Assembly: GCA_023460995.1 (NCBI GenBank)
Contig: JAEWOE010000006.1
Span: forward strand, 231,933 to 295,932
DNA length: 64,000 nucleotides
DNA from: Bacillota bacterium
Lineage (GTDB): Bacteria > Bacillota_I > Bacilli_A > RF39 > UBA660
Direction: 5' to 3'
The notes under the pieces are model-generated. The model saw only the letters and a list, made by a program, of their open reading frames with translations, was not told the origin of the DNA and searched no databases. Made by a program: the position numbers and the translations under genes. Shown here piece after piece: positions 132 through 46,011 of this stretch. The first letter of the stretch is position 1; the number at the start of each line of letters is the position of its first letter.

Positions 132-1691
132 ATGTCATTACTTAATAAGAAAAATAAGCAGTTACTCCTAGATAACAAAATTACTAAGTTAAATAATAAT
201 TTAGATGATTATACTTTGACAGAAGATTTAAAAGAGAATATAGAACTTTTTTCAAAATTGTTTGAAAAAGTTTCAACAATGATAACTCGTAATATAAGTA
301 ATGAAACTTATGCCAATCAAAAATATTCTTTAATGTACTGTGAGGGATTAGTAAATTCTGAAATAATTAATGATAATGTTATTAGACCATTAATACTTTC
401 TAAAATAAAAAAAACTAAAACAGAATTTTTAGATGTTATTGAGAAACAAATAATTCAAATAAATAACTTGAAAAAAACTAAAAGTGTAAAAGATATAGTA
501 GAAGCTATTACATATGGTGAAACAGTTTTATTTGTTGATGGTTATAATGAAGTATTTTTGCTTAATACACAAAAATTCAATTTAAGAAGTGTTACTGAAC
601 CAGAGAATGAGAAAATTCTTCTTGGTCCAAGAGAGGGTTTTACCGAATCTATTTTATTTAACATATCTATGCTACATAGGAAAATTAGAACTAATGATTT
701 TAAGGTTGAATATAAAACAATTGGTAAAAGAACTAATACAAAAATAGCATTATGTTACATGGATAGTGTTGTTAAACCAGAGATATTAGAGGAATTAAAA
801 AAAAGACTAGATGCTATAAATATAGATGGAATTCTAGATAGTAATTATATTATAGAGTTAATTAAAGATAACAAGAATTCTCCTTTTAGAACAATAGGTA
901 ATACTGAAAGACCTGATGTTGCTGTTGGAAAAATACTCGAAGGAAGAATTGTTCTATTTGTTGATGGAACTCCTATTGCACTAACTTTACCATATTTATT
1001 TATTGAAAATTTTCAAAGTAGTGAGGATTATTATTTAGGGTTTTTATATGCGTCTTTTTCAAGAATAATAAGAATGCTTGGATTTATAATAACTACAACT
1101 TTTCCTGCTCTATATATAGCCATAGTTGCTTTTCATCATGAAATGATACCTACCTCATTATTCTTAAATATAACAATGGAAAGACAAAGTGTCCCGTTAC
1201 CTGCTGCATTAGAGGCTTATATAATGTTAATAGTATTTGAAATTCTACGAGAAACTGGTGTTAGAATGCCTACTGGAATTGGACAAGCACTTAGTATAGT
1301 TGGAGCAATAGTCGTAGGTCAAGCAGCTGTTGAGGCAAAGTTAGTAGCAGCTCCTATGATTATAGTCGTTGGTATGACCGGAATAACAAGTTTACTTATT
1401 CCTAAAATGAATGCTGCTAATATATATCTAAGGTTTACTATTCTATTTTTTGCTTCAATGTTTGGTTTCTTTGGATTTTTAATAGCTGGTGCATTTTGGC
1501 TTATACATATTTTAAATTTACAATCTTTTGGAGTAAACCAAGTTGATTTCTTAGAAAGAGGATGGACAAAGAAATTTGAAGATGATCTTGTTAGATTCCC
1601 ATGGCAAAGTATGAAGTCAAGACCTTTTGATATAGCTAATCAAAATAACTTAGTTCGAAATAACACAAAAAGTGGTGATAAAAATGCATAA
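132..1691 (+). CDS. Spore germination receptor A subunit (GerA/GerKA family)
   Basis: 519-aa ORF with a soluble N-terminal part and a C-terminal multi-TM region typical of GerA-family proteins. First gene of an A-C-B operon. RBS GAAAGG lies upstream. Confidence 0.85.
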   Translation: MSLLNKKNKQLLLDNKITKLNNNLDDYTLTEDLKENIELFSKLFEKVSTMITRNISNETYANQKYSLMYCEGLVNSEIINDNVIRPLILSKIKKTKTEFLDVIEKQIIQINNLKKTKSVKDIVEAITYGETVLFVDGYNEVFLLNTQKFNLRSVTEPENEKILLGPREGFTESILFNISMLHRKIRTNDFKVEYKTIGKRTNTKIALCYMDSVVKPEILEELKKRLDAINIDGILDSNYIIELIKDNKNSPFRTIGNTERPDVAVGKILEGRIVLFVDGTPIALTLPYLFIENFQSSEDYYLGFLYASFSRIIRMLGFIITTTFPALYIAIVAFHHEMIPTSLFLNITMERQSVPLPAALEAYIMLIVFEILRETGVRMPTGIGQALSIVGAIVVGQAAVEAKLVAAPMIIVVGMTGITSLLIPKMNAANIYLRFTILFFASMFGFFGFLIAGAFWLIHILNLQSFGVNQVDFLERGWTKKFEDDLVRFPWQSMKSRPFDIANQNNLVRNNTKSGDKNA

Positions 1692-2829
1692 GAAATTATT
1701 ATTAATATTGATCGCATTATTTAGTGCATTATTAACAACTGGTTGCTGGAATTATATAGGGCTAAATGAAATGACAGTAGTGGCTGGAGTAGCAATAGAC
1801 AAATCTGGAGACGAGTACCAGTTAAGTTTTGAAATATATGATTTACAGGATACCGCAACAGGTGAACCAATTAAAACAGAAATAGTTCAATCTACGGGTA
1901 AAACAATATTTGATGCGGTAAGAAATGCAAAGAAAAGAGTAGCAAATAAATTGTATTTTGCCGAAACTAGAATAATAATAGTTAGTGAAGAAATAGCAGA
2001 AGATGATGGACTTAACACTGTTATGAATTGGTTTTACAGAGATCCAGAAGTAAGGGAGACTCTAAGAGTAGTAGTGTCTCAGGAAAGAAGTGCTGTAGCT
2101 CTTTTAAAGGTAGACTCTCTCACAAGTAGTAGTGTTTCAGCAGATATAGAAAATATGGTAGAAAAGGATTTGAAAATTACCGGAGCAACGGTATCAATGC
2201 CTATATATAAGGTATATAATATACTTAATTTTGAAGGAGAGTCATTAACTTTATCAGCTATACATCTTACTAATAATAATGGTGAAAAAGTATGTGAAGT
2301 TAATGGTATAGCTCTGTTTAAAGAGGATAAACTAGTTGACTATTTATCAAGTGATGATAGCAAGTACTATTTATTAGCTAAAGGCGAATTAGAAGGCGGA
2401 ATAATAACGATTAAAACTAAAATAAAAAGTGATGATACAGAGCCGCAGAATTTGTCATTGGAGATAAAGAAAACAAGCTCATCAAGAAAATATATATCCT
2501 TTGATCCTAATAATCTAGCATATAAAATATCGACAAAAGTCCAAGTAACTATAGGAGAACTACGTGATCAATCTGATAAATTAAAAGATGAAGACTTGCT
2601 AAAATTACAAAATGAAGCAGGAGATATTATCAAAGATAGAATAAAAAGTGTGATTGAAAAAATTCAAGAAGAATACAAAACAGATGTTATCGGTTATGGA
2701 GATACTTTATATCGAAGTAATCCTAAAGTATGGAAAAAAGTTAAAGAAAATTTTCAGGAAAAGTTTACTAATATAAATACCGAAGTTGAATGTGAAGTAG
2801 AGATATATAATACAGGGTTTACAAAATAG
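1684..2829 (+). CDS. Spore germination receptor C subunit, lipoprotein (Ger(x)C family)
   Basis: Lipobox LLTTGC after a hydrophobic signal. Start moved to ATG 1684, which follows GGTGAT (1674-1679). Overlaps the end of the A-subunit gene by 8 nt. Confidence 0.8.
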   Translation: MHKKLLLILIALFSALLTTGCWNYIGLNEMTVVAGVAIDKSGDEYQLSFEIYDLQDTATGEPIKTEIVQSTGKTIFDAVRNAKKRVANKLYFAETRIIIVSEEIAEDDGLNTVMNWFYRDPEVRETLRVVVSQERSAVALLKVDSLTSSSVSADIENMVEKDLKITGATVSMPIYKVYNILNFEGESLTLSAIHLTNNNGEKVCEVNGIALFKEDKLVDYLSSDDSKYYLLAKGELEGGIITIKTKIKSDDTEPQNLSLEIKKTSSSRKYISFDPNNLAYKISTKVQVTIGELRDQSDKLKDEDLLKLQNEAGDIIKDRIKSVIEKIQEEYKTDVIGYGDTLYRSNPKVWKKVKENFQEKFTNINTEVECEVEIYNTGFTK

Positions 2830-2841
2830 AAGGAGGAAAAT

Positions 2842-3042
2842 ATGCTTTTATTAATAATATTTGGAATATATTCTTCGGTTTTTATTTTTGATTTTTTAAA
2901 GATAAGAAAAAAACAAAACAAAACCCAGAATATTATATATTTATTTTTATTTTTTACAGCGTTAGCCTTTTCTCTTTCTGATGTATTAGGAATACCAATA
3001 CCAAAGTTTTCGGAAGTACTAAGAAGTATAATTGGAAAATAA
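2842..3042 (+). CDS. Small two-TM membrane protein embedded in the ger operon (possible D-type germinant receptor subunit)
   Basis: 66-aa ORF with a strong AGGAGG RBS and two hydrophobic segments. Lies between the C and B subunit genes. Confidence 0.5.
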   Translation: MLLLIIFGIYSSVFIFDFLKIRKKQNKTQNIIYLFLFFTALAFSLSDVLGIPIPKFSEVLRSIIGK

Positions 3043-3065
3043 TGTAGAAGAGGAAGGTGCGTAAA

Positions 3066-4196
3066 ATGGATAAATATATGTTGTCTTCAAGACAAATAAT
3101 GTTTTTAATAGCAGTATTTTTATTTGGGAGTAGTGTTGTTATAGGAGTTAATATAAACTCAACTGTTGCACAAGATTCTTGGATATCGTTATTTCTATCG
3201 CTTTTTTTTATTATTCCTTATATGCTTATGTTTGCGAGAATAGTTAAGCTTTTTCCACAAAAAAATTTGTATCAGATAATTGATATTCTTTTTAATAAAA
3301 AAATAGCTAAAATCATAATAGTTTCATTTATCATATTTGCATTTTACTTAGGCGGAATAGTATTATGTAACTTTGATCAATATGTTGATGTTACAACGTT
3401 ACCAGAAACACCTCTTTTGCCTATATCAGTGTGCTTTATAGTAATTGTAACCTATTTAGCACGAAGTGGATTAAAAACAATTGGTAGGTGGGGAATGATA
3501 ATATTAGTAGCTCTAACAGTAGTAGTCTCTTTCACTTTATTCTTTTCAGTACCACATTTGGATATTAAATATATATTTCCTATAATGGAACATCCAGTAG
3601 GTGAAATAACTTATACTGCATATAGTATATTTATGTTGCCCTTTGCAGAATTAATCGTTTTATTAGGATTAGCTGATCAGTTTAATATTACAAAAAAAGA
3701 AAGAAGAACTTTTGTAATAGGAGTAATTATTGATTGGTTTCTAATATTGTCTGTTTTAATTAGAAATATACTTATACTTGGTGCCCCACTATTAAAAAAC
3801 ACATTTTTCTCTTCTTATGAAGCTGTTAGAATAATTGAAGTTGGAACCTTTTTAACAAGAATGGAAGGAGTAGTAACAATGAATTTTATCTTGGGAGGAA
3901 TTACTAAACTAGCTATATTTGTAATTTCATTGTCAAAAGGAATTGGTCATCTTTCAAAAAATAATGATTATAGAAAATTAGTTTTTCCTGTAGGTTTAGT
4001 TATATTAGGTACATCTCCTTTACTATTTAAGAACGTTGTGGATATGTTTGATTTTGCTCCAATATTTGGGTTGTATGCTATTCCTTTTCAAATAATATTG
4101 CCTATTTTAATTTGGCTAACTGCAGAATATAAAAACAAAAAAGGTTTATTAAATATTAAAAAAATTAATGATATTGAAAGCTTGCAAGTAACGTAA
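3066..4196 (+). CDS. Spore germination receptor B subunit (GerAB-type, APC-superfamily permease-like)
   Basis: About 10 predicted TM segments. Last gene of the ger operon. ATG 3066 lies 8 nt after AGGAAGG. Confidence 0.8.
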   Translation: MDKYMLSSRQIMFLIAVFLFGSSVVIGVNINSTVAQDSWISLFLSLFFIIPYMLMFARIVKLFPQKNLYQIIDILFNKKIAKIIIVSFIIFAFYLGGIVLCNFDQYVDVTTLPETPLLPISVCFIVIVTYLARSGLKTIGRWGMIILVALTVVVSFTLFFSVPHLDIKYIFPIMEHPVGEITYTAYSIFMLPFAELIVLLGLADQFNITKKERRTFVIGVIIDWFLILSVLIRNILILGAPLLKNTFFSSYEAVRIIEVGTFLTRMEGVVTMNFILGGITKLAIFVISLSKGIGHLSKNNDYRKLVFPVGLVILGTSPLLFKNVVDMFDFAPIFGLYAIPFQIILPILIWLTAEYKNKKGLLNIKKINDIESLQVT

Positions 4197-4219
4197 TTGC
4201 GAGCTTTTTTTGCAAAGAA

Positions 4220-4246
4220 AAACAACATATTATTACTATGTTGTTT
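4220..4246. terminator. Bidirectional intrinsic terminator between the convergent ger operon and the giant pilin-like gene
   Basis: AAACAACATA (4220-4229) / TATGTTGTTT (4237-4246), with A/T runs on both sides. Confidence 0.6.
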
Positions 4247-4250
4247 CAAA

Positions 4251-7200
4251 CTAATTTCCTAAATATGTAAATATAGCTAAACCATTACCACCATGTCCAG
4301 TTTCTGTACCTGTTGCTAAACTTGGCATAACAGCGTTTCCAGCTATCATAGATGTGTTATTAAATGTAGTTCCTGAATAATGGTTGGAATTACTTAATAC
4401 TATTAAATTTGATGATGTAGATATTGCATCTATTCCAAAGCACCCTTCATATCCTGAGATATATGATGAACCACCAGCTCCAGATGATACTCCTGAACTG
4501 ATGACACCGCCACCACCGCCACCGTAGTATCCACCACCGCCACCACCGCCGTGATTAATTTGAGAAGTTCCTCCATCTCCAAATTTACCATACAGTCCAA
4601 GGCCTGATGAACCACCAGGTTTTCCACCGGAAATTTGTGTTCCTCCTGTTGCAAGAGGGTGAGAAACTGCTCCGGTGTTTAATAGACCAGGTCCACCTAT
4701 AAGAGCTCCACCATATCCACCTGTTCTTGCATTAGTCCAGTTAGATGATCCAGCACCACCTCCTGCAACCATAATACGAGTTTTAATACTATCAAAATCC
4801 ATAGTACCATCAAGTGTATATGTTCTTCCAACTGAAAGTTCTGGATATGCACCATCTTTTACTGAGTTAAACATTTCAAGATTATTAGTTTTATCATTAT
4901 TAAGCAGTTGAAGTTTTGTTATATAAACTCTATTATCTGTATAATAATGCCATACTTTTACATCACCAATCTCATATTCAGCACCCAAATCTATTTCAAC
5001 ATATGTTTCAATACCATTACATGCACTTGAATATATGTATGCTGATGATGTAGTAACACCATCTGTTAAAGCGGCAAAACTAGTCATGCCTGCACAATTA
5101 CTAGTAACTTCTTTATTTGCTGATATTAAATTACCTTTAGTATCAAATACTTGAAGTTCAACCCAGTGGTTACCATTATTAACACTACTACCTGTTAGAT
5201 AATCTCTAACATATCTATATTTTTTAGTTTCAGGAGCTAGTCTAACATCGGTTGCTCCACCACCAGAAGAACCACCTTGATATGATGTGCCACCAGCTGA
5301 CCCTCCATTAAAACTTGTTAGACGGTAGTTAGTCGCGCCATCTTTTCCAGCACCACCAACATAAACATATAAACTTTGTCCAGCTATTAAATATGTAGTT
5401 CCTGAAGTATATGCACCAAGTCCACCGCCAACAAGACCACCAGAATTATTTGTTAAATATCTACTAAACCCACCTTGTGCACCCCATAGTTCTATTTTGT
5501 AGTTACCACTAACAGGGGCAGAGAATTTTTGATAATCACCACTATATCCAAATACATAGTTGTAATAATTGTTGTTATATAGTTGACCAACATTAATTGT
5601 TCCTTGACCTCCCGGTGCACCATATGTTTGTGTGATACCTCCACTAGCTACAATATTTCCATATGAACTAATCGTATTAGCAAATACATTAATGCTACCA
5701 CCACCAGAAGAACCACCAGATGCACCAGTACCATAACCACCTTGAGAACCATTAGAAGAAATAGTTCCATTGTTTTCAAATGTTCCGGTATATATCATAA
5801 GTAGTCCACCAGTCCCAGTACCACCTGGACTATGTGTACAGCATGATGAACCAACACCTGCGCCACCAGGATTACCTGCACCACCACCTGCTGCATATCC
5901 ACCAGTGTTTGAATATGTATTTGATTTACCTGCGCCACCAGCACCACCAGTGTTTGACCCAGCATTACCATAGTATGTTACTCCTCGTGAAGTTGTAGCT
6001 CCACCACCAGCACCTCCAGAATAAGATGTCCCAGCACCACCAGGACCAGATCCTGAGTAACCAGAAACATTATTGAATACTCCACCTGAACCTCCGCCAC
6101 CAGTAGAACGGTTGCTTCCATCGACACCTGATTTACCAGCAATTGATATGGAATCGGCGTTTGATAAAGCTACAGCAGTTCCACCACCACTTCCAACTGC
6201 TGGAATATATTCATATGTATTATCTGAATTTTTATACAATAGAACATTTTGCCCTGCAGCAGAAGCACCGCGCGCTGTCATAGATATATTTCCATTGTTT
6301 ATAAGCTTTTTTTCTACATAAACAAGAAAACCTTTTTTTCTAACTTGAGGTGTAAGTGTAACACTTGCATCAACAGTTAAATTTCCATTATATTTATAAA
6401 TACACATTTTTGTATCTACTACATTATCACATAGTGTTGGAGTAGTAGTATAATTTGTATCTTCTTTTATTACATAAATTTCTGCTAAAATTTCTTCATC
6501 ATTAGCTAAGTGTAGTGTATATGTTCCGCTACTAACAAGATAATAACTACTAACAGCATCATATAAAGTATCTTTATATATAGTATCTCCGTCAACATAT
6601 ATTTGACCTACAATAATTTCTAATTTCTTTGTAATACTACCAGTTTTTACAGTAATATTAGTTGTTCCATTTCCAACACCAGTTACTAACCCTTTATCAT
6701 CAACTTTTGCAATACTTTCATCATCACTTATATATATTAAATTTTTATTAGTTGCATTACTAGGAGTTATTGTTGGATTCATTTGTAATGTTGCATCTTT
6801 AACTATATTGTATGTGGTTTGATCAAATGAAACATCACTAACTAATATTTCATTTGTTTCACCTTCAACATACATTTTTTGACCATTATATATAATTCTA
6901 TATCCACCAAAATTACATACAGCTTCTTCAATTTTATTATCATCAATATTAAAATAGCCATCAGTTGGATAACTGCCACTAATTTTAATAATATTATTTA
7001 GATATACATCAGTATTATCATTTATTGTTTCTTCTGCGTATACTTTAGGTATTAAAAGATCACTCAATCCTAAATTTGGTATTTGATAATCTACATAATT
7101 ACTATTTGGTGAAACGTAATATCTATATCCATCATCAATTTCACATTCATCCTTATTCATCTGACATATTACTAAATATGTATCAACTGCTTTAATATAC

Positions 7201-7340
7201 GCATTAAAACTAGTTTTTGCTGCTTCCTTTCGTGCTTCACCCGCGATTTTTGTAATTACCATAGTAGATATAAAAGTAATAATTATAAGTACTATTATTA
7301 CTGCTAATAGTTCAATTAAAGAAAATCCCTTTTTATTCAT
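4251..7340 (-). CDS. Giant (1029 aa) protein with a prepilin-type N-terminal cleavage/methylation signal, a Big_2-like Ig domain, glycine-rich modules and a discoidin (F5/8 type C)-like insert
   Basis: N-terminus MNKKGFSLIELLAVIIVLIII (G-1, F+1, E+5). Big_2-like NATNKNLIYISDDESIAKVDDKGLVTGVGNGTTNITV. Long GGxGG tracts. YKIELWGAQGG motif. HWVELQVFD...YVEIDLGAEYEIGDVKVWHYY. Confidence 0.85.
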   Translation of the reverse strand: MNKKGFSLIELLAVIIVLIIITFISTMVITKIAGEARKEAAKTSFNAYIKAVDTYLVICQMNKDECEIDDGYRYYVSPNSNYVDYQIPNLGLSDLLIPKVYAEETINDNTDVYLNNIIKISGSYPTDGYFNIDDNKIEEAVCNFGGYRIIYNGQKMYVEGETNEILVSDVSFDQTTYNIVKDATLQMNPTITPSNATNKNLIYISDDESIAKVDDKGLVTGVGNGTTNITVKTGSITKKLEIIVGQIYVDGDTIYKDTLYDAVSSYYLVSSGTYTLHLANDEEILAEIYVIKEDTNYTTTPTLCDNVVDTKMCIYKYNGNLTVDASVTLTPQVRKKGFLVYVEKKLINNGNISMTARGASAAGQNVLLYKNSDNTYEYIPAVGSGGGTAVALSNADSISIAGKSGVDGSNRSTGGGGSGGVFNNVSGYSGSGPGGAGTSYSGGAGGGATTSRGVTYYGNAGSNTGGAGGAGKSNTYSNTGGYAAGGGAGNPGGAGVGSSCCTHSPGGTGTGGLLMIYTGTFENNGTISSNGSQGGYGTGASGGSSGGGSINVFANTISSYGNIVASGGITQTYGAPGGQGTINVGQLYNNNYYNYVFGYSGDYQKFSAPVSGNYKIELWGAQGGFSRYLTNNSGGLVGGGLGAYTSGTTYLIAGQSLYVYVGGAGKDGATNYRLTSFNGGSAGGTSYQGGSSGGGATDVRLAPETKKYRYVRDYLTGSSVNNGNHWVELQVFDTKGNLISANKEVTSNCAGMTSFAALTDGVTTSSAYIYSSACNGIETYVEIDLGAEYEIGDVKVWHYYTDNRVYITKLQLLNNDKTNNLEMFNSVKDGAYPELSVGRTYTLDGTMDFDSIKTRIMVAGGGAGSSNWTNARTGGYGGALIGGPGLLNTGAVSHPLATGGTQISGGKPGGSSGLGLYGKFGDGGTSQINHGGGGGGGYYGGGGGGVISSGVSSGAGGSSYISGYEGCFGIDAISTSSNLIVLSNSNHYSGTTFNNTSMIAGNAVMPSLATGTETGHGGNGLAIFTYLGN

Positions 7341-7444
7341 TATAATTCCTGCTTTCTATTTTAATTCATTAAAATAACAAAACCAATTATGTAGTGTATT
7401 TAGCCTATACAATAGATATTAGTAAGACACATTAATACTAATTG

Positions 7445-7479
7445 GGTTAAAAAATAAGAAGTTAAAATATGACTTCTTA
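7445..7479 (-). terminator. Orphan minus-strand intrinsic terminator-like hairpin upstream of the giant pilin-like gene
   Basis: TAAGAAGT (7455-7462) / ACTTCTTA (7472-7479). On the minus strand it is followed by TTTTTT (7445-7454 region). Confidence 0.35.
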
Positions 7480-7717
7480 CTTCAATATATTATTTTTAGG
7501 GTTATACATAATCTATTATTATTTAAGTATAAATACTTAAATAAAACAAATACAATAGTAATCATAATTTAATTAATTTATTATATCTATTGTTAATTAA
7601 TTATAACATTTACAAACAAAAATTAAAAGTTAAACTTATTTGAATTACTATATATACAAATAAAAGTTATTACAATTTACTTTAAACTAAAAACTTTTTC
7701 TTTTTATCAAAAAGATA

Positions 7718-7746
7718 TTGACAAATACACTTGTTATTAATATAAT
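7718..7746 (+). promoter_or_regulatory. Consensus sigma-A promoter of nadE
   Basis: TTGACA 7718-7723, 17-nt spacer, TATAAT 7741-7746. Confidence 0.75.
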
Positions 7747-7760
7747 GTTAATAACAAGTG
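7728..7760. promoter_or_regulatory. Perfect 13-bp inverted repeat (candidate operator) bracketing the nadE -10 box
   Basis: CACTTGTTATTAA (7728-7740) / TTAATAACAAGTG (7748-7760). The 7-nt centre is TATAATG. Confidence 0.5.
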
Positions 7761-7787
7761 ATAACTGTATTATAAGGAGATGAATTT

Positions 7788-18968: not shown

Positions 18969-19802
18969 ATGAAAAGAGATAGGGGTTTTACTTTAATAGA
19001 ACTATTGGGAGTCATTATATTATTAGGAGTTATCATAGCGATAATTGTTCCTAAGATTAGTACAACAATAGAATCAAGTAAACAAAAGGCTGCAGCTGAT
19101 AACGGACTTGTATATATTAAAGCAACAAGAGATTACTATAATGCTAATATATTGAATAGTGACTTTATACTTAAAGATGGTAAAAACTATGTAAAAGATA
19201 TAGATGGGTATATAGAAATTAAAGGCGATAGACCGCTATCAGGTTATCTAACAATAACGGATGATAAGATTGTATATGCTAAAATGTGTATTAACTATTA
19301 TGAAGTTATATATCAGAATAATGATGCTAGTGTAACCGGAAAGTGTGATGGTGTTGATGAGGAAGAATCTAATAGTTACACATCATATGTAGCTGGTGCA
19401 GCAAAAGCATATATATATGTTGCGCCTGGTCAATTTGATGATAAGGCTGTACTCGGAGCTCCACAAAAAACATTAATAATATATGTTGATTCAGATGAAA
19501 AAGTTATAAGTGCTCACTGGGGATATGTTTTTGATACAATAGATCCAACTATAATTCAAAGTTATAGTTCGGAAATCAATTCTATTTACTCAAGTTTCCC
19601 AATTCCAGTAGATGTTTCACATTATTATATATTAGAAGAATTATCTGTTTTATATTTAATGGAAAATAATACTTATATGAATATGGATGGAGCACCAGTA
19701 GTAGACTATTCAGCATCTCTTGCTACAGTTTTTGATAGTTTAAATGCTACTATATTTGGTGGTGTTATATCAACAACAGTGTATAAAACAATTGTATTTT
19801 AA
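18969..19802 (+). CDS. Prepilin-type N-terminal cleavage/methylation domain protein (pilin/pseudopilin-like, 277 aa)
   Basis: MKRDRGFTLIELLGVIILLGVIIAIIV class III signal. Confidence 0.8.
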   Translation: MKRDRGFTLIELLGVIILLGVIIAIIVPKISTTIESSKQKAAADNGLVYIKATRDYYNANILNSDFILKDGKNYVKDIDGYIEIKGDRPLSGYLTITDDKIVYAKMCINYYEVIYQNNDASVTGKCDGVDEEESNSYTSYVAGAAKAYIYVAPGQFDDKAVLGAPQKTLIIYVDSDEKVISAHWGYVFDTIDPTIIQSYSSEINSIYSSFPIPVDVSHYYILEELSVLYLMENNTYMNMDGAPVVDYSASLATVFDSLNATIFGGVISTTVYKTIVF

Positions 19803-19830
19803 AAGCTAACAAAATTTTGTTAGCTTTTTT
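19801..19830. terminator. Bidirectional terminator shared by the two convergent pilin-like genes
   Basis: AAAAGCTAACAAAA/TTTTGTTAGCTTTT perfect 14-bp dyad. Confidence 0.7.
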
Positions 19831-20557
19831 ATCCTATAGGTGGATTATCTTCACATAAATGAGTATAAAAATTTAACACTTCGGTTTCATCATATACACT
19901 ATATTTAGCACAAAATGAACTGCCTTCTATTTCTGTAGAATATAAATTAATTCCACTTACTTCAATGTTACCATTAATACTTGTTAAAAATCCACTTTCA
20001 ATTTCAATAGGAGGATCTATAACTGCTGAATCTTGAAATGTTAAACTTAGTGTTTCGTTATTTAAAGAAAACTCTCTATATAAACCATCATTATTGTAAT
20101 ATAGTGCTTTGTCTAAAATGTAAGTTACTGTATCTCCAAAATCACAATAACTCATATCACCAGATGTAATAATATCACTAAAATATGTTTTGAATGAACA
20201 TAAATCATTATTTTTTATGTATATTCCAATTAATCCATCCTTAGTAACTTTTACATAGCCGTGCCCATTTTTAATTTTTCCATCGGTAGTTATAGAGGCA
20301 GTTGTACTACAGTTAGTTCCACTTTCATCACATTCATAAAGTTTGTTAGTATCAAAAAGATAAGCTTTAGTTTCAAAATCACTATTTTGAGATTCAGATT
20401 TAACTGTTGCTAATAAACCAGAAACACTAGCCATAAAAGCTTTTTTTCTTTGTTTTTCTATTGTTGTATTAACTGTTGGTACTATAATAATTCCTATTAA
20501 CCCTAAAATAACAATAACAGCAATTAATTCTACTATTGTAAATCCATTCTTTTTCAT
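19829..20557 (-). CDS. Prepilin-type N-terminal cleavage/methylation domain protein (pilin/pseudopilin-like, 242 aa)
   Basis: MKKNGFTIVELIAVIVILGLIGIIIVP. Start moved to ATG 20557, 5 nt after AGAGGTG. The tracked ORF carries an 18-codon upstream extension. Confidence 0.8.
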   Translation of the reverse strand: MKKNGFTIVELIAVIVILGLIGIIIVPTVNTTIEKQRKKAFMASVSGLLATVKSESQNSDFETKAYLFDTNKLYECDESGTNCSTTASITTDGKIKNGHGYVKVTKDGLIGIYIKNNDLCSFKTYFSDIITSGDMSYCDFGDTVTYILDKALYYNNDGLYREFSLNNETLSLTFQDSAVIDPPIEIESGFLTSINGNIEVSGINLYSTEIEGSSFCAKYSVYDETEVLNFYTHLCEDNPPIG

Positions 20558-20674
20558 AACTACACCTCTATTATCTATTGGTATTATATAATAAAATAAA
20601 CTTAATAGCAATAAACTTTCCTTTCTATCTTGCTAAAATATTACTTTGGTGTTAAAATATTTTTAGGTGATATT

Positions 20675-24461: not shown

Positions 24462-24491
24462 AAATGTGATATAATTATGTTAGGTGATAAA

Positions 24492-25721
24492 ATGGTCAAG
24501 AGGAAAAGAAAAATTAAAATTAAAAATATTGTTTTACTGTTAATAATACTTACTATGTTCTTTATAGCTATATATAAAATAGTAACTCATAATGATTTTA
24601 AAGTTACTTTGAAAAGGACAACATTTGAAATTGGTGAAGAGTATACTAATGACTTTGTCGCTACATATAAAGGTGATGATGTAACGGATAAAGTTGAAGT
24701 AACTCATAATATATATAGTAATGCAGTAGGAAAGTATCAAGTTGTTTTTAGTTATTCTGTGGAAAACAAGCAATATAAAGTTACGAAAACAATAGAGATT
24801 CAAGATGTTACTAAACCAGAAATTAAACTAAAAAGTGGTGAAACCATTATGGTTGTTTTGGGTAATAAATTTGCTGATCCGGGCTATACTGCTGTAGATG
24901 ATTATGATGGCGATATAACTAATAATGTTAAAGTATCTGGAGAAGTTGATACTGATAAAGAAGGTTCATATACATTAAAATATACAGTATCTGATTCTAG
25001 CGATAATAAGACTGTAGTAAAAAGAAAAGTAACTGTTACTACTAATTCTCCACTTACAATGTCTTTAAAAGACTTTAGTTTAACTGGCTATTTTACTAAT
25101 GTATTACTAAATGATACAAAAGACGCTGGTGAAAAATATACAGATAACTTTATTTTTGTCGGAGATAGTACAGCTTTATATTATGTAATGAATAAAGTTA
25201 TAACTGGTAAACAATTATGGCATAAAGAAGGAGTAAGCTTAGAAACTATATTTACACAAAATATATATATTAACCATATAGATTCTAAATTAAACTTGAT
25301 AGATGCCTTTGAAAAAAATAAACCAGCTAAAGTATTGCTATCTCTTGGAACTAACAGTGTATCAACAATGGAGATTGATTACTTTATTGAAAAATATGAA
25401 CAACTATTAACTAGTTTAAAAAAAGTTAGTCCTAGTTCATTAATAATTGTACAATCTATCTTTCCAGTTGCTGCATCTTTAGATGAAGCAGGAAAAGGAT
25501 TAAATAATGATAAAATCAACAAAATGAATTATAAATTATTAGAATTATGTAGTAAGCTAGATATACCATTTTTAAATACAGCTGAGGTATTAAAAGATGA
25601 AAATGGTCAGCTTAAAGATGGATATTTCCGTACAACTGCAAACGAAAATGGTGTTCATTTATCAGAAGAAGGAAATAAAGTGGCAATGCAATATTTTAGA
25701 ACACATGCATATGAAAACTAG
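24492..25721 (+). CDS. Membrane-anchored protein with an Ig-like (DUF5011-type) domain and a C-terminal SGNH/GDSL-like hydrolase domain
   Basis: N-terminal TM. PGYTAVDDYDGDIT...YTLKYTVSDSSDN. FVGDST and GVHLSEEG motifs. Confidence 0.55.
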   Translation: MVKRKRKIKIKNIVLLLIILTMFFIAIYKIVTHNDFKVTLKRTTFEIGEEYTNDFVATYKGDDVTDKVEVTHNIYSNAVGKYQVVFSYSVENKQYKVTKTIEIQDVTKPEIKLKSGETIMVVLGNKFADPGYTAVDDYDGDITNNVKVSGEVDTDKEGSYTLKYTVSDSSDNKTVVKRKVTVTTNSPLTMSLKDFSLTGYFTNVLLNDTKDAGEKYTDNFIFVGDSTALYYVMNKVITGKQLWHKEGVSLETIFTQNIYINHIDSKLNLIDAFEKNKPAKVLLSLGTNSVSTMEIDYFIEKYEQLLTSLKKVSPSSLIIVQSIFPVAASLDEAGKGLNNDKINKMNYKLLELCSKLDIPFLNTAEVLKDENGQLKDGYFRTTANENGVHLSEEGNKVAMQYFRTHAYEN

Positions 25722-27020: not shown

Positions 27021-27731
27021 ATGGTAGAGTTTATTATTTGTGATGATGATAAGAAATTTCTAAAACAAGTTGAAGATCTTATCTCTAAAATTATGGTAAA
27101 GAAGAAAATAGAATATGATATTTTAAAATTTTATGATTACGATGATAAATTTTTTAATCATATTGCAGCCAAGGAATGCATGCGCATTTTTATCCTTGAT
27201 ATAGAGACACCTACTAACTCAGGAATAATAGTTGGTAGAAAAATTAGAAAAACGGATTATGAAAGTCCAATAATATTTTTGACGGGACATGAAGAGTTAG
27301 GAAATATGCTATTACGTAAAGATTTAATGTTTTTAGCATTTATTAATAAATTTGAGGAATTTAATACAAGATTAAAAAAGACTATTGAAAAGGCATTAGC
27401 TATTTCAAATAAAAAAACATATTTAGATATAGATAGTCACGGAATAACATATAAAATTGCATTTGATAAAATACTTTATATTACTAGAGATAGTGTAGAA
27501 AGAAAGACTCTTATAGTAACTGAGATTAATACACATAAAATATTAAAAAGCTTGTCTGAAGTGGTTGAGAGTCTCGATGATAGATTCATTCAAACTCATA
27601 GGGCCTGTATAATAAATAGTGATAGGGCTGAAGAAATTAATTATAAACAAAAATACATCTTGTTTGATAACGGAATTAAAATTGATTTAATATCTAATAA
27701 TTACAAGATAGGAGGAAGAACAAAGTGTTAG
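27021..27731 (+). CDS. LytTR-family response regulator (AgrA-like)
   Basis: Receiver domain (ICDDD...FILDIETP) and a C-terminal LytTR-type DNA-binding domain. Confidence 0.8.
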   Translation: MVEFIICDDDKKFLKQVEDLISKIMVKKKIEYDILKFYDYDDKFFNHIAAKECMRIFILDIETPTNSGIIVGRKIRKTDYESPIIFLTGHEELGNMLLRKDLMFLAFINKFEEFNTRLKKTIEKALAISNKKTYLDIDSHGITYKIAFDKILYITRDSVERKTLIVTEINTHKILKSLSEVVESLDDRFIQTHRACIINSDRAEEINYKQKYILFDNGIKIDLISNNYKIGGRTKC

Positions 27732-29056
27732 ATGGAATTGTTGACTTATATGGATTAGTATTATTAAAAATTTTCATTATTGCTTCTTTATATAAAATAA
27801 ATAATAAAAAGCTTTATATCAAGGATAAAGATTTTTATATATGCACTGCTATATATCTTCTAATACAAATAGTTTTTGGAGGAGAGATTTTCTATAACGT
27901 AAGACCATTTATAAATTTTCTTTCATTAATCATAATATGTTGGAGAATTTTAAAAAAAGAATTAATTCAGTCTTTGCTGTCAGCAATATTTATATATTTT
28001 TTTATGATAGTGTTTGAGTTTTTATTAATTTTTTTAGTCTTAGCAATAGCGAGAATAACAACAACCATATCTTTGTCACTGCTCTTAAAATTAATTGATG
28101 GGAATACTGTTTATTCTTTTTTAATTAATGCAATTTTTGCTATGTTTTTTTACTGCTTCTGTAGTATTAAGAAAGTTTTAAAAGTATATGGTTATATGGA
28201 TAATTACCTATATAAGAATAGATTCAAAAAAAGTTATTCTCTTATTTTTCCGATCTTCTTATTCTTATTATTTTCTTTTTGGATTTTATGTTTTAGTAAT
28301 AATTTGGTAGTAATAATATCTATATATTTCGTTATTTTTATATTTACAAGCTATATTATTTTTAACAGTTTTTGTATAAGTAATGATTATGAAAAAGCGA
28401 AGGAAAAATATACAAAAACCTATAATAGTTTAATTGAGTATGAACAAATGATTGATAAGTATAGAATAAATAATCATGAAAATAAAAATCAATTGCAGAT
28501 GATAAGAAATATGATAAGACAAAAAGATAAATCTGTTGATAAATATATAGACAATTTATTAGATACTGTCTATACAGTAAATGAGTCAATTATGATGGAT
28601 GTTTCTATTATTCCTGCGGGTGGCTTACGTGCTACAATTTATTCAAAATTAGTAACAATGGATAATAATGGTATTAAGCATATTATGAATATTGATCATG
28701 GATTAAGGAATGTAGATTTTTTTGAAAACAATCCGAAGATAACACTAAAAATTTGCGATTTACTAAGTATTTTTATTGATAATGCCATTGATGAGGTGAA
28801 GCTTCAGGATGATAAATGTATTAATTTGGATATTTTTTTAGAAGATGAGAATAGAATGATTTTTGAAATTTCTAATTATGTCGTTAGTAAATTTGATTTT
28901 AATAAAATATTTGATAGCCGATATACTACAAAAAGTGATGGGCATGGTTATGGTCTTGTTTTAGCTAAAGAAATAATTGAAAGTGAGACAATTATTTCTA
29001 ATGAAACATCAATTGTTAATGATGTCTTCATTCAAAAAATAATAGTAATAATTTAA
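27725..29056 (+). CDS. AgrC-like (HPK10) membrane sensor histidine kinase
   Basis: About 6 N-terminal TM segments, H-box NHENKNQLQ, and a GHKL ATPase region with DGHGYGL. GTG start overlaps the regulator gene by 7 nt. Confidence 0.75.
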   Translation: MLDGIVDLYGLVLLKIFIIASLYKINNKKLYIKDKDFYICTAIYLLIQIVFGGEIFYNVRPFINFLSLIIICWRILKKELIQSLLSAIFIYFFMIVFEFLLIFLVLAIARITTTISLSLLLKLIDGNTVYSFLINAIFAMFFYCFCSIKKVLKVYGYMDNYLYKNRFKKSYSLIFPIFLFLLFSFWILCFSNNLVVIISIYFVIFIFTSYIIFNSFCISNDYEKAKEKYTKTYNSLIEYEQMIDKYRINNHENKNQLQMIRNMIRQKDKSVDKYIDNLLDTVYTVNESIMMDVSIIPAGGLRATIYSKLVTMDNNGIKHIMNIDHGLRNVDFFENNPKITLKICDLLSIFIDNAIDEVKLQDDKCINLDIFLEDENRMIFEISNYVVSKFDFNKIFDSRYTTKSDGHGYGLVLAKEIIESETIISNETSIVNDVFIQKIIVII

Positions 29057-29060
29057 TGAA

Positions 29061-29092
29061 AAAACGATAAGATATTAATATCTTATCGTTTT
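29061..29092. terminator. Bidirectional terminator between the kinase operon and agrBD
   Basis: AAAACGATAAGATA/TATCTTATCGTTTT 14-bp dyad with a TTAA loop. Confidence 0.75.
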
Positions 29093-29102
29093 AACTATAA
29101 TA

Positions 29103-29219
29103 TTATAAAAGTTCTTTAGGACAAACTGGTTCATCAGTCCAAATAAGTCCAGATCTCTGTACATTAGCTGTTCCAGCAGCAATACTTAGAACAGAAATTA
29201 TGTGTGATAACAACCCCAT
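29103..29219 (-). CDS. agrD: AgrD-like autoinducing peptide precursor (38 aa, absent from the ORF track)
   Basis: Translation: MGLLSHIISVLSIAAGTANVQRSGLIWTDEPVCPKELL. AAGGAGG RBS lies inside the agrB 3' end. C-terminal DEPVCPKELL matches the AgrD recognition tail (DEVEVPKEL / DEPEIPAELL). Confidence 0.7.
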   Translation of the reverse strand: MGLLSHIISVLSIAAGTANVQRSGLIWTDEPVCPKELL

Positions 29220-29221
29220 TT

Positions 29222-29839
29222 TTATTCCTCCTTTCGTTTATAGTTTCCATAAACAATGTAATTGTTATATGGCTGATTAAAAAGCTTGTATGTGAAAGGA
29301 GAAATTAAAAGTGACTGAATTAACAAGCTATATGTAGTGGCGTTCAGTATAAAGTTATTTTTAATAATAAGTTGGAGTAATAAAAACATTAATACAACTA
29401 TAATAGACTTAATTTTTCTTTTTATTCTATCGTTTTCTCTAATTAATGGTCTTTTTTTTGTGTCTGCAGGACTATACAATGCAAAAATAGAAATAGCTGC
29501 TCCAGTTATGATGAGTCTATATGACATTTCTATGAAAATATGTATGCATGCGTATGTTCCGCCTATAAATAGTATAATTGATAATATAGTGCAGCTCAAA
29601 CTATTAGATAAATGTAGCCCACCAGCATATGATCTAAGTAGCCAGCACAATAGCAAAAGTATATATAATTTTATTGTTATTCCAATAATTATACTTATAA
29701 ATGTAATAATAATTAATTTTGTGACAAATATGTATAATACTTCTAAACCATAATGTGCTATTATTTTATCCTTCTCTGTATAAACATTATGTTTTTCCAA
29801 AAAGGGCATCGCTTTATCGGCAAATTTTTTACTACTCAT
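29222..29839 (-). CDS. agrB: AgrB-family membrane peptidase (AgrD processing/cyclisation)
   Basis: 205-aa polytopic protein with AgrB-like YAGGLH and PADT motifs. agrD follows immediately. Confidence 0.8.
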   Translation of the reverse strand: MSSKKFADKAMPFLEKHNVYTEKDKIIAHYGLEVLYIFVTKLIIITFISIIIGITIKLYILLLLCWLLRSYAGGLHLSNSLSCTILSIILFIGGTYACIHIFIEMSYRLIITGAAISIFALYSPADTKKRPLIRENDRIKRKIKSIIVVLMFLLLQLIIKNNFILNATTYSLLIQSLLISPFTYKLFNQPYNNYIVYGNYKRKEE

Positions 29840-45452: not shown

Positions 45453-45529
45453 GGGCGATTAGCTCAGTTGGTTAGAGCACCTGCCTTACAAGCAGGGGGT
45501 CGTAGGTTCGAGTCCTACATCGCCCACCA
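45453..45529 (+). tRNA. tRNA-Val (UAC)
   Basis: Cloverleaf, anticodon loop CTTACAA, encoded CCA. Confidence 0.95.
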
Positions 45530-45537
45530 TATATTGT

Positions 45538-45613
<76 letters not shown>

Positions 45614-45636
45614 TTTTTATTATGACGAATACATAT

Positions 45637-45720
45637 GGAAGGATAGCGAAGTGGCTAAACGCGGCAGACTGTAAATCTGTTCCTTCGGGTTCGATGGTTC
45701 GAATCCATCTCCTTCCACCA
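45637..45720 (+). tRNA. tRNA-Tyr (GUA)
   Basis: Long variable arm, anticodon loop CTGTAAA, encoded CCA. Confidence 0.95.
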
Positions 45721-45751
45721 CTTTATTATTTGACATATGTAGGCAATACAT

Positions 45752-45826
45752 TGCCTCGTGGCCAAGCGGTAAGGCACCACACTTTGACTGTGGCATGCGC
45801 TAGTTCGAATCTAGCCGAGGCAGCCA
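45752..45826 (+). tRNA. tRNA-Gln (UUG)
   Basis: Anticodon loop CTTTGAC, encoded CCA. Confidence 0.9.
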
Positions 45827-45838
45827 TTTTTAATATTT

Positions 45839-45914
45839 GTCCCGTTAGCTCAGCCGGTAGAGCATTTGACTTTTAATCAAAGGGTCGTGAGTTCGAATCT
45901 CGCACGGGACACCA
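45839..45914 (+). tRNA. tRNA-Lys (UUU)
   Basis: Anticodon loop CTTTTAA, encoded CCA. Confidence 0.95.
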
Positions 45915-45922
45915 TTTTATAT

Positions 45923-46011
45923 GCCTGAGTGGCGAAATTGGTAGACGCACAGGACTTAAAATCCTGCGGGAGTCAAATCCCATGCCGGTTCAAGTCCGGC
46001 CTTAGGCACCA
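45923..46011 (+). tRNA. tRNA-Leu (UAA)
   Basis: Long variable arm, anticodon loop CTTAAAA, encoded CCA. Confidence 0.95.

What the first reader, a model, noticed from the sequence alone, without database searches (positions are those of the whole stretch)
4251..7340. 1029-aa protein with a pilin signal fused to Ig-like, discoidin-like and glycine-rich modules
The N-terminus MNKKG|FSLIELLAVIIVLIII is a textbook class III (prepilin peptidase) signal, with Gly-1, Phe+1 and Glu+5. The mature part is about 1000 aa, whereas ordinary pilins are about 120-200 aa.

The mature part contains:
- a Big_2-like Ig domain
- two long blocks of GGxGG repeats. The second starts with YSGDYQKFSAPVSGNYKIELWGAQGG and reminds me of the ALK/LTK-type glycine-rich domain family.
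- a discoidin/F5-8-type-C-like carbohydrate-binding insert (HWVELQVFD...YVEIDLGAEYEIGDVKVWHYY) splitting the second glycine-rich block

The gene is monocistronic. It lies between a bidirectional terminator and a 447-bp AT-rich region, with no pilus-assembly genes nearby. A filament-displayed adhesin or lectin built on a pilin stalk would be an unusual architecture.
Basis: partly seen in the sequence, partly recalled or inferred. Interest (0 to 1): 0.7.

Follow-up and report, generated by a model that had tools for sequence, protein, structure and literature searches.

The report
Giant modular type IV pilin adhesin
This gene encodes a very large pilin-type surface protein, from an uncultured spore-forming gut-type bacterium, that carries an Ig domain, two glycine-rich modules and a sugar-binding-like domain; it is a well-supported new example of the already described "modular pilins", not a new kind of system.

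Summary
The ORF is real. It runs from 4251 to 7340 on the minus strand and encodes 1029 aa. A syntenic orthologue at 90% identity shows purifying selection.

The architecture has five parts:
- **Pilin module.** It starts with the class III signal MNKKG|FSLIE. The model gives a 54-residue helix and a 4-stranded sheet. The family profile hits only solved type IV pilins.
- **Big_2 Ig domain.**
- **Unannotated glycine-rich module**, about 350 aa, with about 1,200 representative clusters in public data.
- **ALK/LTK-type glycine-rich domain.** Pfam gives 3e-33, and the top 21 PDB fold matches are ALK/LTK.
- **Discoidin/CBM32-like insert** that splits the ALK/LTK-type domain. It looks circularly permuted and is homologous to Bacillus phage tail-tip proteins.

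The gene is monocistronic. There are no pilus-assembly genes in the roughly 85 kb visible, nor beside nine homologues. Four more orphan prepilin genes lie in the same 85 kb. I could not test for a prepilin peptidase or ATPase elsewhere in the genome.

Modular pilins were described in 2021, and the pilin–PF12810 architecture is already catalogued. This is therefore a new member of a known kind. It most likely acts as a filament-displayed glycan or surface-ligand adhesin. Interest is moderate.

The parts
7326..7340 (-). Leader peptide MNKKG (aa 1-5) of the class III (prepilin) signal. Cleavage is predicted after Gly5.
   Evidence: Sequence. Profile position 6 aligns to residue 1 of mature solved pilins. 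56 homologues have G-1/F+1/E+5 with leaders mostly 4-10 aa long.
6846..7325 (-). Pilin module (aa 6-165): hydrophobic alpha1N, a long alpha1 helix, a variable low-confidence loop (78-113) and a 4-stranded antiparallel sheet.
   Evidence: The AF2 model has helix 8-61 and strands 127-133, 136-144, 147-151 and 156-161. Profile A4 hits S. sanguinis PilE1 at 1.2e-9, and MshA, PilA and Geobacter PilA-N. The NCBIfam hits are only to pilin or pseudopilin N-termini.
6612..6842 (-). Big_2 bacterial Ig-like domain (aa 167-243), a probable spacer.
   Evidence: Pfam Big_2 at 3.2e-13. PDB 7quz by sequence at 9e-9 and by fold at rmsd 1.4 A over 83 columns.
5541..6605 (-). 'Module X' (aa 246-600): an unannotated module with 21% Gly. 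It has a beta-rich N-terminal part followed by a well-ordered glycine-rich part.
   Evidence: pLDDT is mostly above 90. There is no Pfam hit except a weak DUF4397 match, no PHROG hit and no match in phage genomes. The PDB fold search of the N-terminal model returned only Big_2/Ig-type matches among the 50 best listed. 1194 representative clusters score at E<=1e-3 and 256 at E<=1e-30, with up to 5 copies in proteins of up to 7394 aa.
5235..5540 (-). ALK/LTK-type glycine-rich domain, N-terminal part (aa 601-702; starts YSGDYQKFSAPVSGNYKIELWGAQGG).
   Evidence: Pfam ALK_LTK_GRD at 3.1e-33 in two stretches. AF2 pLDDT is 91.7. Foldseek ranks 1-21 are all ALK/LTK TG/GRD structures.
4806..5234 (-). 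Discoidin (F5/8 type C, CBM32-like) beta-sandwich inserted in the glycine-rich domain (aa ~703-845). It looks circularly permuted.
   Evidence: Pfam gives 25.1 bits on the isolated insert, and 14 of 15 homologous inserts match PF22633. The PDB profile hits are all CBM32, discoidin or fucolectin modules, with the RYVR..W.E motif aligned to their C-terminal strands. tblastn against Bacillus phage minor tail / tail fibre proteins gives 4e-18. Phage CP-51 tail protein matches at rmsd 1.7 A. phrog_21973 'tail protein' scores 9.7e-11.
4254..4805 (-). ALK/LTK-type glycine-rich domain, C-terminal part (aa 846-1029).
   Evidence: The best Pfam stretch covers 847-1026 and profile positions 95-242 of 243. 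Model and fold matches as for the N-terminal part.
4217..4247 (-). Intrinsic-terminator-like hairpin for the pilin gene (11-bp stem, then UUUUUCUUUG).
   Evidence: Fold energy is -10.7 kcal/mol with z = -2.8. Sequence. The neighbouring + strand gene has its own hairpin with a U7 tail at 4176-4211.
7341..7787 (.). 447-bp, 17% GC divergent intergenic region holding the promoter(s). No known riboswitch.
   Evidence: GC content. Promoter-like hexamers occur at no more than the chance rate. No Rfam match at E<=1.

Best explanation
The gene encodes a modular type IV pilin. The proposed mechanism has four steps.

1. The protein is made as a prepilin. Its 5-residue leader is removed after Gly5, and Phe+1 is probably N-methylated, by a prepilin peptidase encoded elsewhere in the genome (inferred).
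2. The hydrophobic alpha1 helix with Glu+5 then lets the small pilin module enter a type IV filament assembled by an unlinked machinery.
3. Because the head is about 860 aa, the protein most likely sits as a low-abundance subunit at or near the filament tip (inferred by analogy with S. sanguinis PilB and PilC).
4. The rest of the protein is a ligand-binding head. A Big_2 Ig domain acts as spacer. It is followed by an unannotated glycine-rich module. Last comes an ALK/LTK-type TNF-like/glycine-rich domain, which presents a discoidin/CBM32-like domain at one of its loops.

Both the glycine-rich domain and the insert also occur in phage tail and receptor-binding proteins. The head therefore most likely binds a glycan or another surface ligand on host mucus, food particles or other cells.

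Shown: the ORF, its conservation, the domain identities and the predicted folds. Inferred: processing, filament incorporation and the ligand class.
For: - **Signal and fold.** The class III signal has G-1/F+1/E+5. The predicted pilin fold has a 54-residue alpha1 helix and a 4-stranded sheet.
- **Profile matches.** The family profile hits only solved type IV pilins, in the register of the mature N-terminus.
- **Conserved motif.** G-1/F+1/E+5 occurs with short basic leaders in 56 of the 240 proteins collected through their C-terminal modules. That includes all of the closest full-length relatives.
- **Real gene.** The syntenic orthologue is under purifying selection, with 255 synonymous against 100 non-synonymous codon changes. 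The alpha1N segment has 1 non-synonymous change in 33 codons.
- **More prepilin genes.** Four further prepilin-type genes with the same signal lie in the same ~85 kb, which implies a working peptidase.
- **Head domains.** GRD. Discoidin-like insert. Homology of the insert to a siphophage tail-tip protein encoded next to the tape-measure protein. Many phage proteins share the GRD fold.
- **Precedent.** Modular pilins PilB (vWA) and PilC (lectin) are filament-borne adhesins (PMC8179133; PMC9934059).
Against: - No prepilin peptidase, PilB/ComGA ATPase or PilC/ComGB platform was found in the window or within 10 kb on either side.
- None was found within 10 kb of nine homologues either. The rest of the genome could not be read.
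- The protein's own N_methyl and TIGR02532 scores fall just below the curated cut-offs.
- Nothing shows that a 1024-aa mature subunit can be incorporated into a filament.
- Ligand binding is inferred only from domain families.
- The insert scores below Pfam's cut-off in this protein.
Confidence: 0.6

Rival explanations
1. It is a pilin-like surface protein that is not polymerised. On this view the class III signal serves only for prepilin-peptidase processing and for anchoring through alpha1N in the membrane. The ~1000-aa head then projects through the wall as a cell-bound adhesin or binding protein. The analogy is to archaeal sugar-binding proteins that carry class III signals (my own knowledge of the Sulfolobus bindosome, not tested here).
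For: - The gene and all nine homologue loci examined are unlinked to any assembly genes.
- Some genomes carry 11 or more tandem paralogues of pilin-GRD genes, which is far more than a filament needs as minor subunits.
- Related heads are fused to N-termini that lack Glu+5, such as G|ITLIAL and G|FAISG. That suggests anchoring alone can suffice.
- The head is very bulky.
Against: - Glu+5 is dispensable for cleavage but important for filament assembly (established pilin biology). It is retained in this protein, in its orthologues and in all of the closest full-length relatives.
- The module after alpha1N is a complete predicted pilin head, not just a helix.
- Characterised modular pilins are in filaments (PMC8179133).
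Confidence: 0.27
2. It is an ordinary signal-anchored (type II membrane) or Sec-secreted surface protein, and its N-terminus only resembles a prepilin signal by chance.
For: - The Pfam N_methyl score (18.0) and the TIGR02532 score (15.7) are below their cut-offs.
- No peptidase gene was seen in the readable DNA.
Against: - G-1, F+1 and E+5 are conserved together in the 56 homologues with this signal type. A charged Glu inside a plain membrane anchor would not be kept.
- The profile matches only solved pilins, at 1e-9.
- The predicted fold is a pilin fold.
- 12 of 14 homologous N-terminal modules match TIGR02532, best 4e-9.
Confidence: 0.04
3. It is a prophage- or phage-derived receptor-binding (tail-fibre-like) protein rather than a cellular surface organelle subunit.
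For: - The GRD fold and the discoidin-like insert recur in phage tail proteins.
- Big_2 is common in phage structural proteins.
Against: - The neighbours are housekeeping genes (gerA operon, NAD synthetase, radical SAM) and there are no phage genes.
- The same synteny holds in a second MAG.
- GC3 is like that of the host genes.
- The pilin N-terminus is not a tail-fibre feature.
- Module X is absent from 50,697 phage genomes and from PHROGs.
Confidence: 0.03

Closest known systems
Modular type IV pilins: Streptococcus sanguinis PilB (pilin + vWA) and PilC (pilin + ConA-like lectin), as defined by Raynaud et al. 2021 (PMC8179133) and Shahin et al. 2023 (PMC9934059)
   Same: A small N-terminal pilin module with a class III signal carries functional, non-pilus-specific module(s) predicted to bind ligands. 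The host is a monoderm. The published catalogue already contains IPR012902-PF12810, IPR012902-Big_2 and IPR012902-F5/8-type-C architectures.
   Different: - This protein carries four extra modules (about 860 aa) instead of one.
- The combination Big_2 + unannotated glycine-rich module + GRD split by a discoidin-like domain is not listed in that catalogue.
- The gene is an orphan far from any pil genes, whereas S. sanguinis pilB and pilC lie in the pil locus (my knowledge).
- No experimental data exist for any pilin-GRD protein.
ALK/LTK extracellular TG (TNF-like + glycine-rich) domain, PF12810 (PDB 7NX1, 7MZY, 7N00, 7LS0)
   Same: The Pfam match is 3e-33. The 21 best PDB fold matches are all ALK/LTK. 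Glycine runs alternate with strands that build a beta-sandwich.
   Different: - Sequence identity is about 13% and TM is about 0.4 normalised on the target.
- The context is bacterial, on a pilin rather than a receptor kinase.
- An extra ~140-aa discoidin-like domain is inserted.
- The cytokine ligands (ALKAL) have no bacterial counterpart.
- The polyglycine-II lattice itself could not be verified, because no model coordinates were available.
Phage tail-tip and tail-fibre proteins with carbohydrate-binding decorations (Bacillus phage BSTP12 minor tail protein, CP-51 and JL tail proteins), and the polyglycine-rich gp38 adhesin of phage S16 (PDB 6F45; cited in PMC13243192)
   Same: The insert is 30-38% identical to a domain of these Bacillus phage tail proteins and superposes at 1.7 A. 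GRD-fold proteins are common in phages. Glycine-rich scaffolds that present binding loops are an established phage adhesin principle.
   Different: There is no phage context. The N-terminus is a pilin module. gp38 itself was not among the fold matches. Module X has no phage counterpart.
Competence (Com) pilus pilins ComGC/GD/GE/GF and T2SS pseudopilins GspG/H
   Same: They share the class III signal and alpha1N, which give weak N-terminal HMM hits.
   Different: Scores are 16-24 bits against equivalog cut-offs of 49-89. Similarity is confined to the first ~70 residues. Size and the C-terminal modules are unrelated.

Membership tests
Type IV pilin / prepilin (class III signal peptide) | Short basic leader ending in Gly-1, hydrophobic +1 residue (Phe), Glu at +5, and about 20 hydrophobic residues | tested here: met
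   The sequence is MNKKG|FSLIELLAVIIVLIIITFISTMV. The same pattern occurs in 56 homologues.
Type IV pilin / prepilin (class III signal peptide) | Curated HMM for the N-terminal methylation motif (PF07963 / TIGR02532) scores above its cut-off | tested here: inconclusive
   This protein scores 18.0 against 21.2 and 15.7 against 16.3, both just below. Of 14 homologous N-terminal modules, 12 match TIGR02532, best 4.1e-9. The family profile hits solved pilins at 1.2e-9.
Type IV pilin / prepilin (class III signal peptide) | Pilin fold: an extended alpha1 helix of about 50 residues packed on an antiparallel beta-sheet | tested here: met
   The AF2 model has helix 8-61 and four strands at 127-161, with pLDDT about 70-85 and a disordered loop at 78-113. 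This is a prediction only.
Type IV pilin / prepilin (class III signal peptide) | The genome encodes a prepilin peptidase (Peptidase_A24), an assembly ATPase (T2SSE) and a platform protein (T2SSF) | not testable with these tools
   None was found in the ~85 kb readable. The remaining ~870 kb of the contig, and any other contigs, could not be accessed.
Type IV pilin / prepilin (class III signal peptide) | Leader cleavage, N-methylation and incorporation into a filament | not testable with these tools
   These need biochemistry and microscopy.
Modular pilin (sensu Raynaud et al. 2021) | An N-terminal pilin module plus at least one extra domain not specific to pilus biology | tested here: met
   The pilin module is followed by Big_2, ALK_LTK_GRD and a discoidin-like domain. 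The definition and catalogue are in PMC8179133.
ALK_LTK_GRD (PF12810) | Pfam HMM scores above the gathering score | tested here: met
   116.2 bits against 24.5, in two stretches that flank the insert.
ALK_LTK_GRD (PF12810) | TNF-like sandwich plus glycine-rich (polyglycine-II) lattice fold | tested here: inconclusive
   The model has pLDDT 91.7. Foldseek ranks 1-21 are ALK/LTK with probability 0.85-1.00 (16 of them at 1.00) and TM of about 0.2-0.4 normalised on the target. PGII geometry could not be measured without coordinates.
F5/8 type C (discoidin) / CBM32 | Pfam HMM scores above the gathering score | tested here: not met
   PF22633 scores 20.3 bits on the whole protein and 25.1 on the isolated insert, against 27.8. 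PF00754 scores 14.3 against 28.2. At family level, 14 of 15 inserts match PF22633, best 1.5e-8. I therefore call it discoidin-LIKE.
F5/8 type C (discoidin) / CBM32 | Canonical strand order, with the R-Y-V-R...W..E motif at the C-terminus | tested here: not met
   The motif YRYVRDY..HWVELQVF lies at the START of the insert and aligns to residues 109-134 of the AlyQ CBM32. The TDG..YVEIDLG..Y part aligns to residues 24-69. This suggests a circular permutation, but the second alignment is weak.
Big_2 (PF02368) | Pfam HMM above the cut-off, and an Ig-like fold | tested here: met
   49.9 bits against 22.8. 7quz matches at rmsd 1.4 A.
Com pilus pilins (ComGC/GD/GE) or T2SS pseudopilins | NCBIfam equivalog score above its cut-off | tested here: not met
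   Scores are 16-24 bits against cut-offs of 49-89, and the matches cover N-terminal residues only.
Phage tail fibre / receptor-binding protein | Encoded among phage structural genes | tested here: not met
   The neighbours are gerA/gerC/gerB, nadE and radical-SAM genes, with the same synteny in L001.

The most novel reading that the evidence does not exclude
Pilin-GRD proteins could be a phage-tail-fibre-like, diversifying repertoire of interchangeable receptor-binding heads carried on type IV filaments of gut Bacillota.

- Their modules (the ALK-type glycine-rich scaffold and a permuted discoidin domain) would be exchanged with phage tail-tip proteins.
- Some genomes have expanded them into arrays of 11 or more tandem paralogues.
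- The unannotated 'module X' (about 1,200 representative clusters) would be a second, new polyglycine-type fold.
- The bacterial and phage GRDs would be the evolutionary source of the metazoan ALK/LTK ligand-binding domain.
Probability: 0.2. Interest if true: 0.65.

Novelty: new member of a known kind. Interest (0 to 1): 0.35.

Why it matters
Modular pilins explain how simple filaments gain new functions, but only a few (vWA and lectin modules) have been studied experimentally.

- **A concrete example with good models.** This protein puts an ALK/LTK-type glycine-rich domain on a pilin, and it is conserved and models with high confidence. No bacterial member of that domain family has a known function.
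- **A link to phages.** The head domains also occur in phage tail-tip proteins.
- **A sizeable family.** Pilin-GRD genes are orphans, and in some genomes they form large tandem arrays.
- **An undescribed module.** It also exposes a widespread ~350-aa glycine-rich module that domain databases do not yet describe.

None of this changes the current picture of type IV filaments. It extends a known theme and gives targets for glycan-binding and structural work.

Tried and rejected
1. **Assembly genes.** I ran Pfam on all ORFs of at least 100 aa in the window, apart from five (three lying inside longer ORFs and two short ones). I also read the gene calls for 10 kb beyond each side. Neither showed a Peptidase_A24, T2SSE or T2SSF gene. 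The rest of the 959-kb contig cannot be read with these tools.
2. **Linkage in relatives.** Nine homologue loci were inspected and none lies beside pilus machinery.
3. **Riboswitch.** I looked for a c-di-GMP or other riboswitch in the 447-bp leader region. There was no Rfam match at E<=1.
4. **Horizontal transfer as the cause of the GC bump.** Rejected. GC3 is 9-15%, like the neighbouring genes, and the bump follows glycine content.
5. **Are the two glycine-rich blocks related?** BLASTP found no similarity. An hhalign hit between alignments A2 and A1 was an artefact, caused by module X copies present in other rows of A1.
6. **Fold of module X.** The PDB Foldseek search of the N-terminal model was dominated by the Big_2 domain and said nothing about module X. 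Phage genomes and PHROGs gave no hits.
7. **Com pilus minor pilin or pseudopilin identity.** Rejected on NCBIfam cut-offs.
8. **Literature on bacterial PF12810 proteins.** I found nothing beyond the 2021 catalogue. The De Munck 2021 paper was not held.


Full report
**What is there.** The coordinates 4251..7340 delimit a single ORF of 1029 codons on the minus strand. It starts at an ATG preceded by AGGA. It ends 4 nt before an 11-bp hairpin followed by UUUUUCUUUG.

Both neighbours are on the plus strand. A gerA/gerC/gerB-type germinant-receptor operon converges on its 3' end. A glutamine-dependent NAD synthetase gene diverges from its 5' end, across a 447-bp spacer of 17% GC. So the gene is monocistronic.

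The '+' gene has its own hairpin with a U7 terminator.

The window is 27% GC and comes from a 959-kb contig of an uncultured, spore-forming Bacillota (ENA ERZ27268749). A MAG labelled 'Bacillota bacterium OH_PBB_246' has a syntenic orthologue of the same length and 90% identity. The two differ by 255 synonymous and 100 non-synonymous codons. This is an expressed-type, selected gene and not a chance ORF. Its higher GC (35%) is a glycine-codon effect, because GC3 is as low as in the neighbours.

**Anatomy.**

*(i) aa 1-165, pilin module.* The N-terminus MNKKG|FSLIELLAVIIVLIIITF has Gly-1, Phe+1 and Glu+5.
- The protein's own scores against PF07963 (18.0 against 21.2) and TIGR02532 (15.7 against 16.3) fall just short.
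- The AlphaFold2 model gives an uninterrupted helix at 8-61, a low-confidence loop at 78-113 and four antiparallel strands at 127-161. That is the pilin fold.
- A profile of this module from 14 homologues hits nothing in the PDB at E<0.1 except type IV pilins. These include S. sanguinis PilE1 at 1.2e-9, MshA, PilA and Geobacter PilA-N. Profile position 6 aligns to residue 1 of the mature chains.
- I collected 240 proteins through their C-terminal modules, not through the N-terminus. Of these, 56 carry G|F-x-x-x-E after a short basic leader.

*(ii) aa 167-243, Big_2 Ig domain.* Pfam gives 3e-13, and 7quz matches at rmsd 1.4 A.

*(iii) aa 246-600, 'module X'.*
- It is 21% glycine and is modelled at pLDDT above 90.
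- It has no Pfam, PHROG or phage-genome match. The PDB fold search of the whole N-terminal model listed only Ig-type matches and so did not assess it. It shows no similarity to the C-terminal glycine-rich block.
- It is a real, widespread domain. 1194 representative clusters score at E<=1e-3 and 256 at E<=1e-30, with up to five copies in proteins of up to 7394 aa.

*(iv) aa 601-702 plus 846-1029, ALK/LTK-type glycine-rich domain.* Pfam gives 3.1e-33 in two stretches. The model has mean pLDDT 91.7. Its 21 best PDB matches are all ALK or LTK TG/GRD structures. In the viral structure library, many phage proteins share the fold.

*(v) aa ~703-845, beta-sandwich inserted into a loop of the glycine-rich domain.* Relatives without the insert join ...GGGATDVRL directly to ...SRIMVAGGG (e.g. 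P0023).
- The insert is below Pfam's cut-off in this protein: 25.1 bits against 27.8.
- 14 of 15 homologous inserts match F5_F8_type_C_2, best 1.5e-8.
- A profile of them finds only CBM32, discoidin or fucolectin modules in the PDB.
- The order of motifs is swapped relative to canonical discoidin domains. R-Y-V-R...W.E.QVF comes first and TDG...YVEIDLG...Y comes second, which suggests a circular permutation. This is an inference, because the second alignment is weak.
- The insert is 30-38% identical to part of Bacillus phage 'minor tail' or 'tail fibre' proteins (4e-18). In phage BSTP12, that protein is the 1120-aa tail-tip protein encoded just after the tape-measure and distal-tail genes.
- It superposes on the CP-51 tail protein at 1.7 A and matches a 'tail protein' PHROG.

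**Surroundings.** Pfam scans of the ORFs of at least 100 aa in the window found no prepilin peptidase, assembly ATPase or platform protein (five were left out: three inside longer ORFs and two short ones). The gene calls for 10 kb beyond each end showed none either.

The same ~85 kb does contain four more prepilin-type genes with canonical signals. They encode proteins of 277, 260, 360 and 683 aa. All are scattered among housekeeping genes, and none has the size of a typical major pilin.

The homologues behave the same way. Nine loci were examined, all in housekeeping neighbourhoods and none beside pilus genes. In two scaffolds, pilin-GRD genes form head-to-tail arrays of at least 11 paralogues. 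The 447-bp upstream region has no Rfam match.

**Mechanism.** The best-supported reading is a modular type IV pilin.

*Shown:* the signal, the predicted pilin fold, the domain identities, conservation and gene solitude.

*Inferred:* a peptidase encoded elsewhere removes MNKKG and methylates Phe+1. The alpha1 helix with Glu+5 inserts the subunit into a filament. The bulky head makes a tip or near-tip position most likely, as argued for S. sanguinis PilB (PMC8179133). The head binds a glycan or surface ligand.

The ligand inference rests on two points. The first is the discoidin/CBM32-like family. The second is that both the glycine-rich scaffold and the insert are used by phage tail proteins. 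Glycine-rich polyglycine-II scaffolds are an established adhesin principle in phage S16 gp38 (cited in PMC13243192).

The variable parts between orthologues are the pilin head, Big_2 and the insert, while the glycine-rich cores are most conserved. This fits a conserved scaffold that presents a variable binding module.

The main rival is that such orphan 'pilins' are processed but stay membrane-anchored as cell-bound surface proteins. The lack of linkage, the large paralogue arrays and the sister proteins whose N-termini lack Glu+5 all speak for it. Retention of Glu+5 and a complete pilin head speak against it.

A plain signal anchor and a prophage tail fibre are both unlikely.

[quoted passage not shown] The supplementary catalogue of that paper already lists IPR012902-PF12810 (2 proteins), a triple-PF12810 form, IPR012902-IPR000421 and several Big_2 forms. 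The kind is therefore known, and even the key fusion is catalogued.

Four things are new:
- the particular five-part architecture;
- the discoidin-like domain nested in the glycine-rich domain;
- the link of that domain to phage tail-tip proteins;
- the recognition of module X as a large unannotated family.

I found no paper that characterises any bacterial PF12810 protein.

**Verdict.** The interpretation 'pilin-borne adhesin or lectin' is the best explanation, but it is not an unusual architecture in kind. The decisive genome-wide check for the assembly machinery remains open. I rate it a new member of a known kind, with interest of about 0.35.

Noticed in passing
L009 2470-22220 and L010 5598-22160: These are head-to-tail arrays of at least 11 same-strand paralogous genes (418-739 aa). 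Every gene has ALK_LTK_GRD and most have an N_methyl signal. Each array is preceded by a DUF402 gene and a ~266-aa ORF, in two ENA gut-type MAG scaffolds. They look like an expanded, possibly diversifying surface-protein family.
   Followed up: partly
window 18969-19802 (+) and 19829-20611 (-; likely true start ATG at 20557): Two further prepilin-type ORFs (277 and ~242 aa) lie tail to tail, with signals MKRDRG|FTLIELL and MKKNG|FTIVELI. They have no other Pfam domain and no pilus genes around them.
   Followed up: partly
L012 12299-14350 (about 2.3 kb right of the window end) and L004 20253-21335 (about 3 kb left of the window start): Two more orphan prepilin-type genes (683 aa and 360 aa) have strong N_methyl hits (5e-8). 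The ~600-aa C-terminal part of the 683-aa protein has no Pfam or PDB sequence match. It could be another modular pilin with an unknown head.
   Followed up: partly
window 5541-6605 (-) and proteins P0241-P0359: 'Module X', a ~350-aa glycine-rich domain without any Pfam model, has about 1,200 representative clusters. It occurs up to five times in giant proteins of 2,000-7,400 aa. It also occurs in Paenibacillus proteins that start without a signal peptide (MATYTG...) and carry F5/8 type C domains.
   Followed up: partly
proteins P0015, P0018, P0032-P0037, P0121-P0139: The same head modules are fused to other N-terminal types that resemble class III signals but lack Glu+5: K-G|ITLIALVITII (Ala+5), K-G|ISLIVLVITII (Val+5), NK-G|FAISGVLYP (Gly+5) and QK-G|IVLSGLIY. 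There are also ~290-aa stand-alone GRD proteins that begin MQTFTAPVSGNYKLEVWGAQGG.
   Followed up: no
window 45453-46752, then 47043-54784: A cluster of 12 tRNA genes is followed by about 8 kb of ORFs mostly without Pfam hits, plus DUF3800 and an AbiJ N-terminal-domain protein. This may be an integrated element or defence islet next to the tRNA array.
   Followed up: no
window 27021-29839: An agr-like quorum-sensing set: a LytTR response regulator and a GHKL histidine kinase on the + strand, and AgrB on the - strand.
   Followed up: no
window 24477-25721 (+): A 414-aa protein has two Bact_surface_Ig-like domains fused to a GDSL lipase/acylhydrolase, so it is a likely surface enzyme. The same Ig-like domain recurs in many pilin-GRD relatives.
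   Followed up: no
window 132-4196 (+): A complete GerA/GerC/GerB-type spore germinant receptor operon converges on the pilin gene. Together with SpoIID just outside the window, it marks the organism as an endospore former.
   Followed up: no
L015 14540-16189: In one homologue's contig, comEA-like (SLBB/HHH) and comEC-like (Competence/Lactamase_B) genes lie about 8 kb from the orphan pilin gene. At least that relative therefore has DNA-uptake machinery, which normally goes with a Com pilus and a prepilin peptidase.
   Followed up: no
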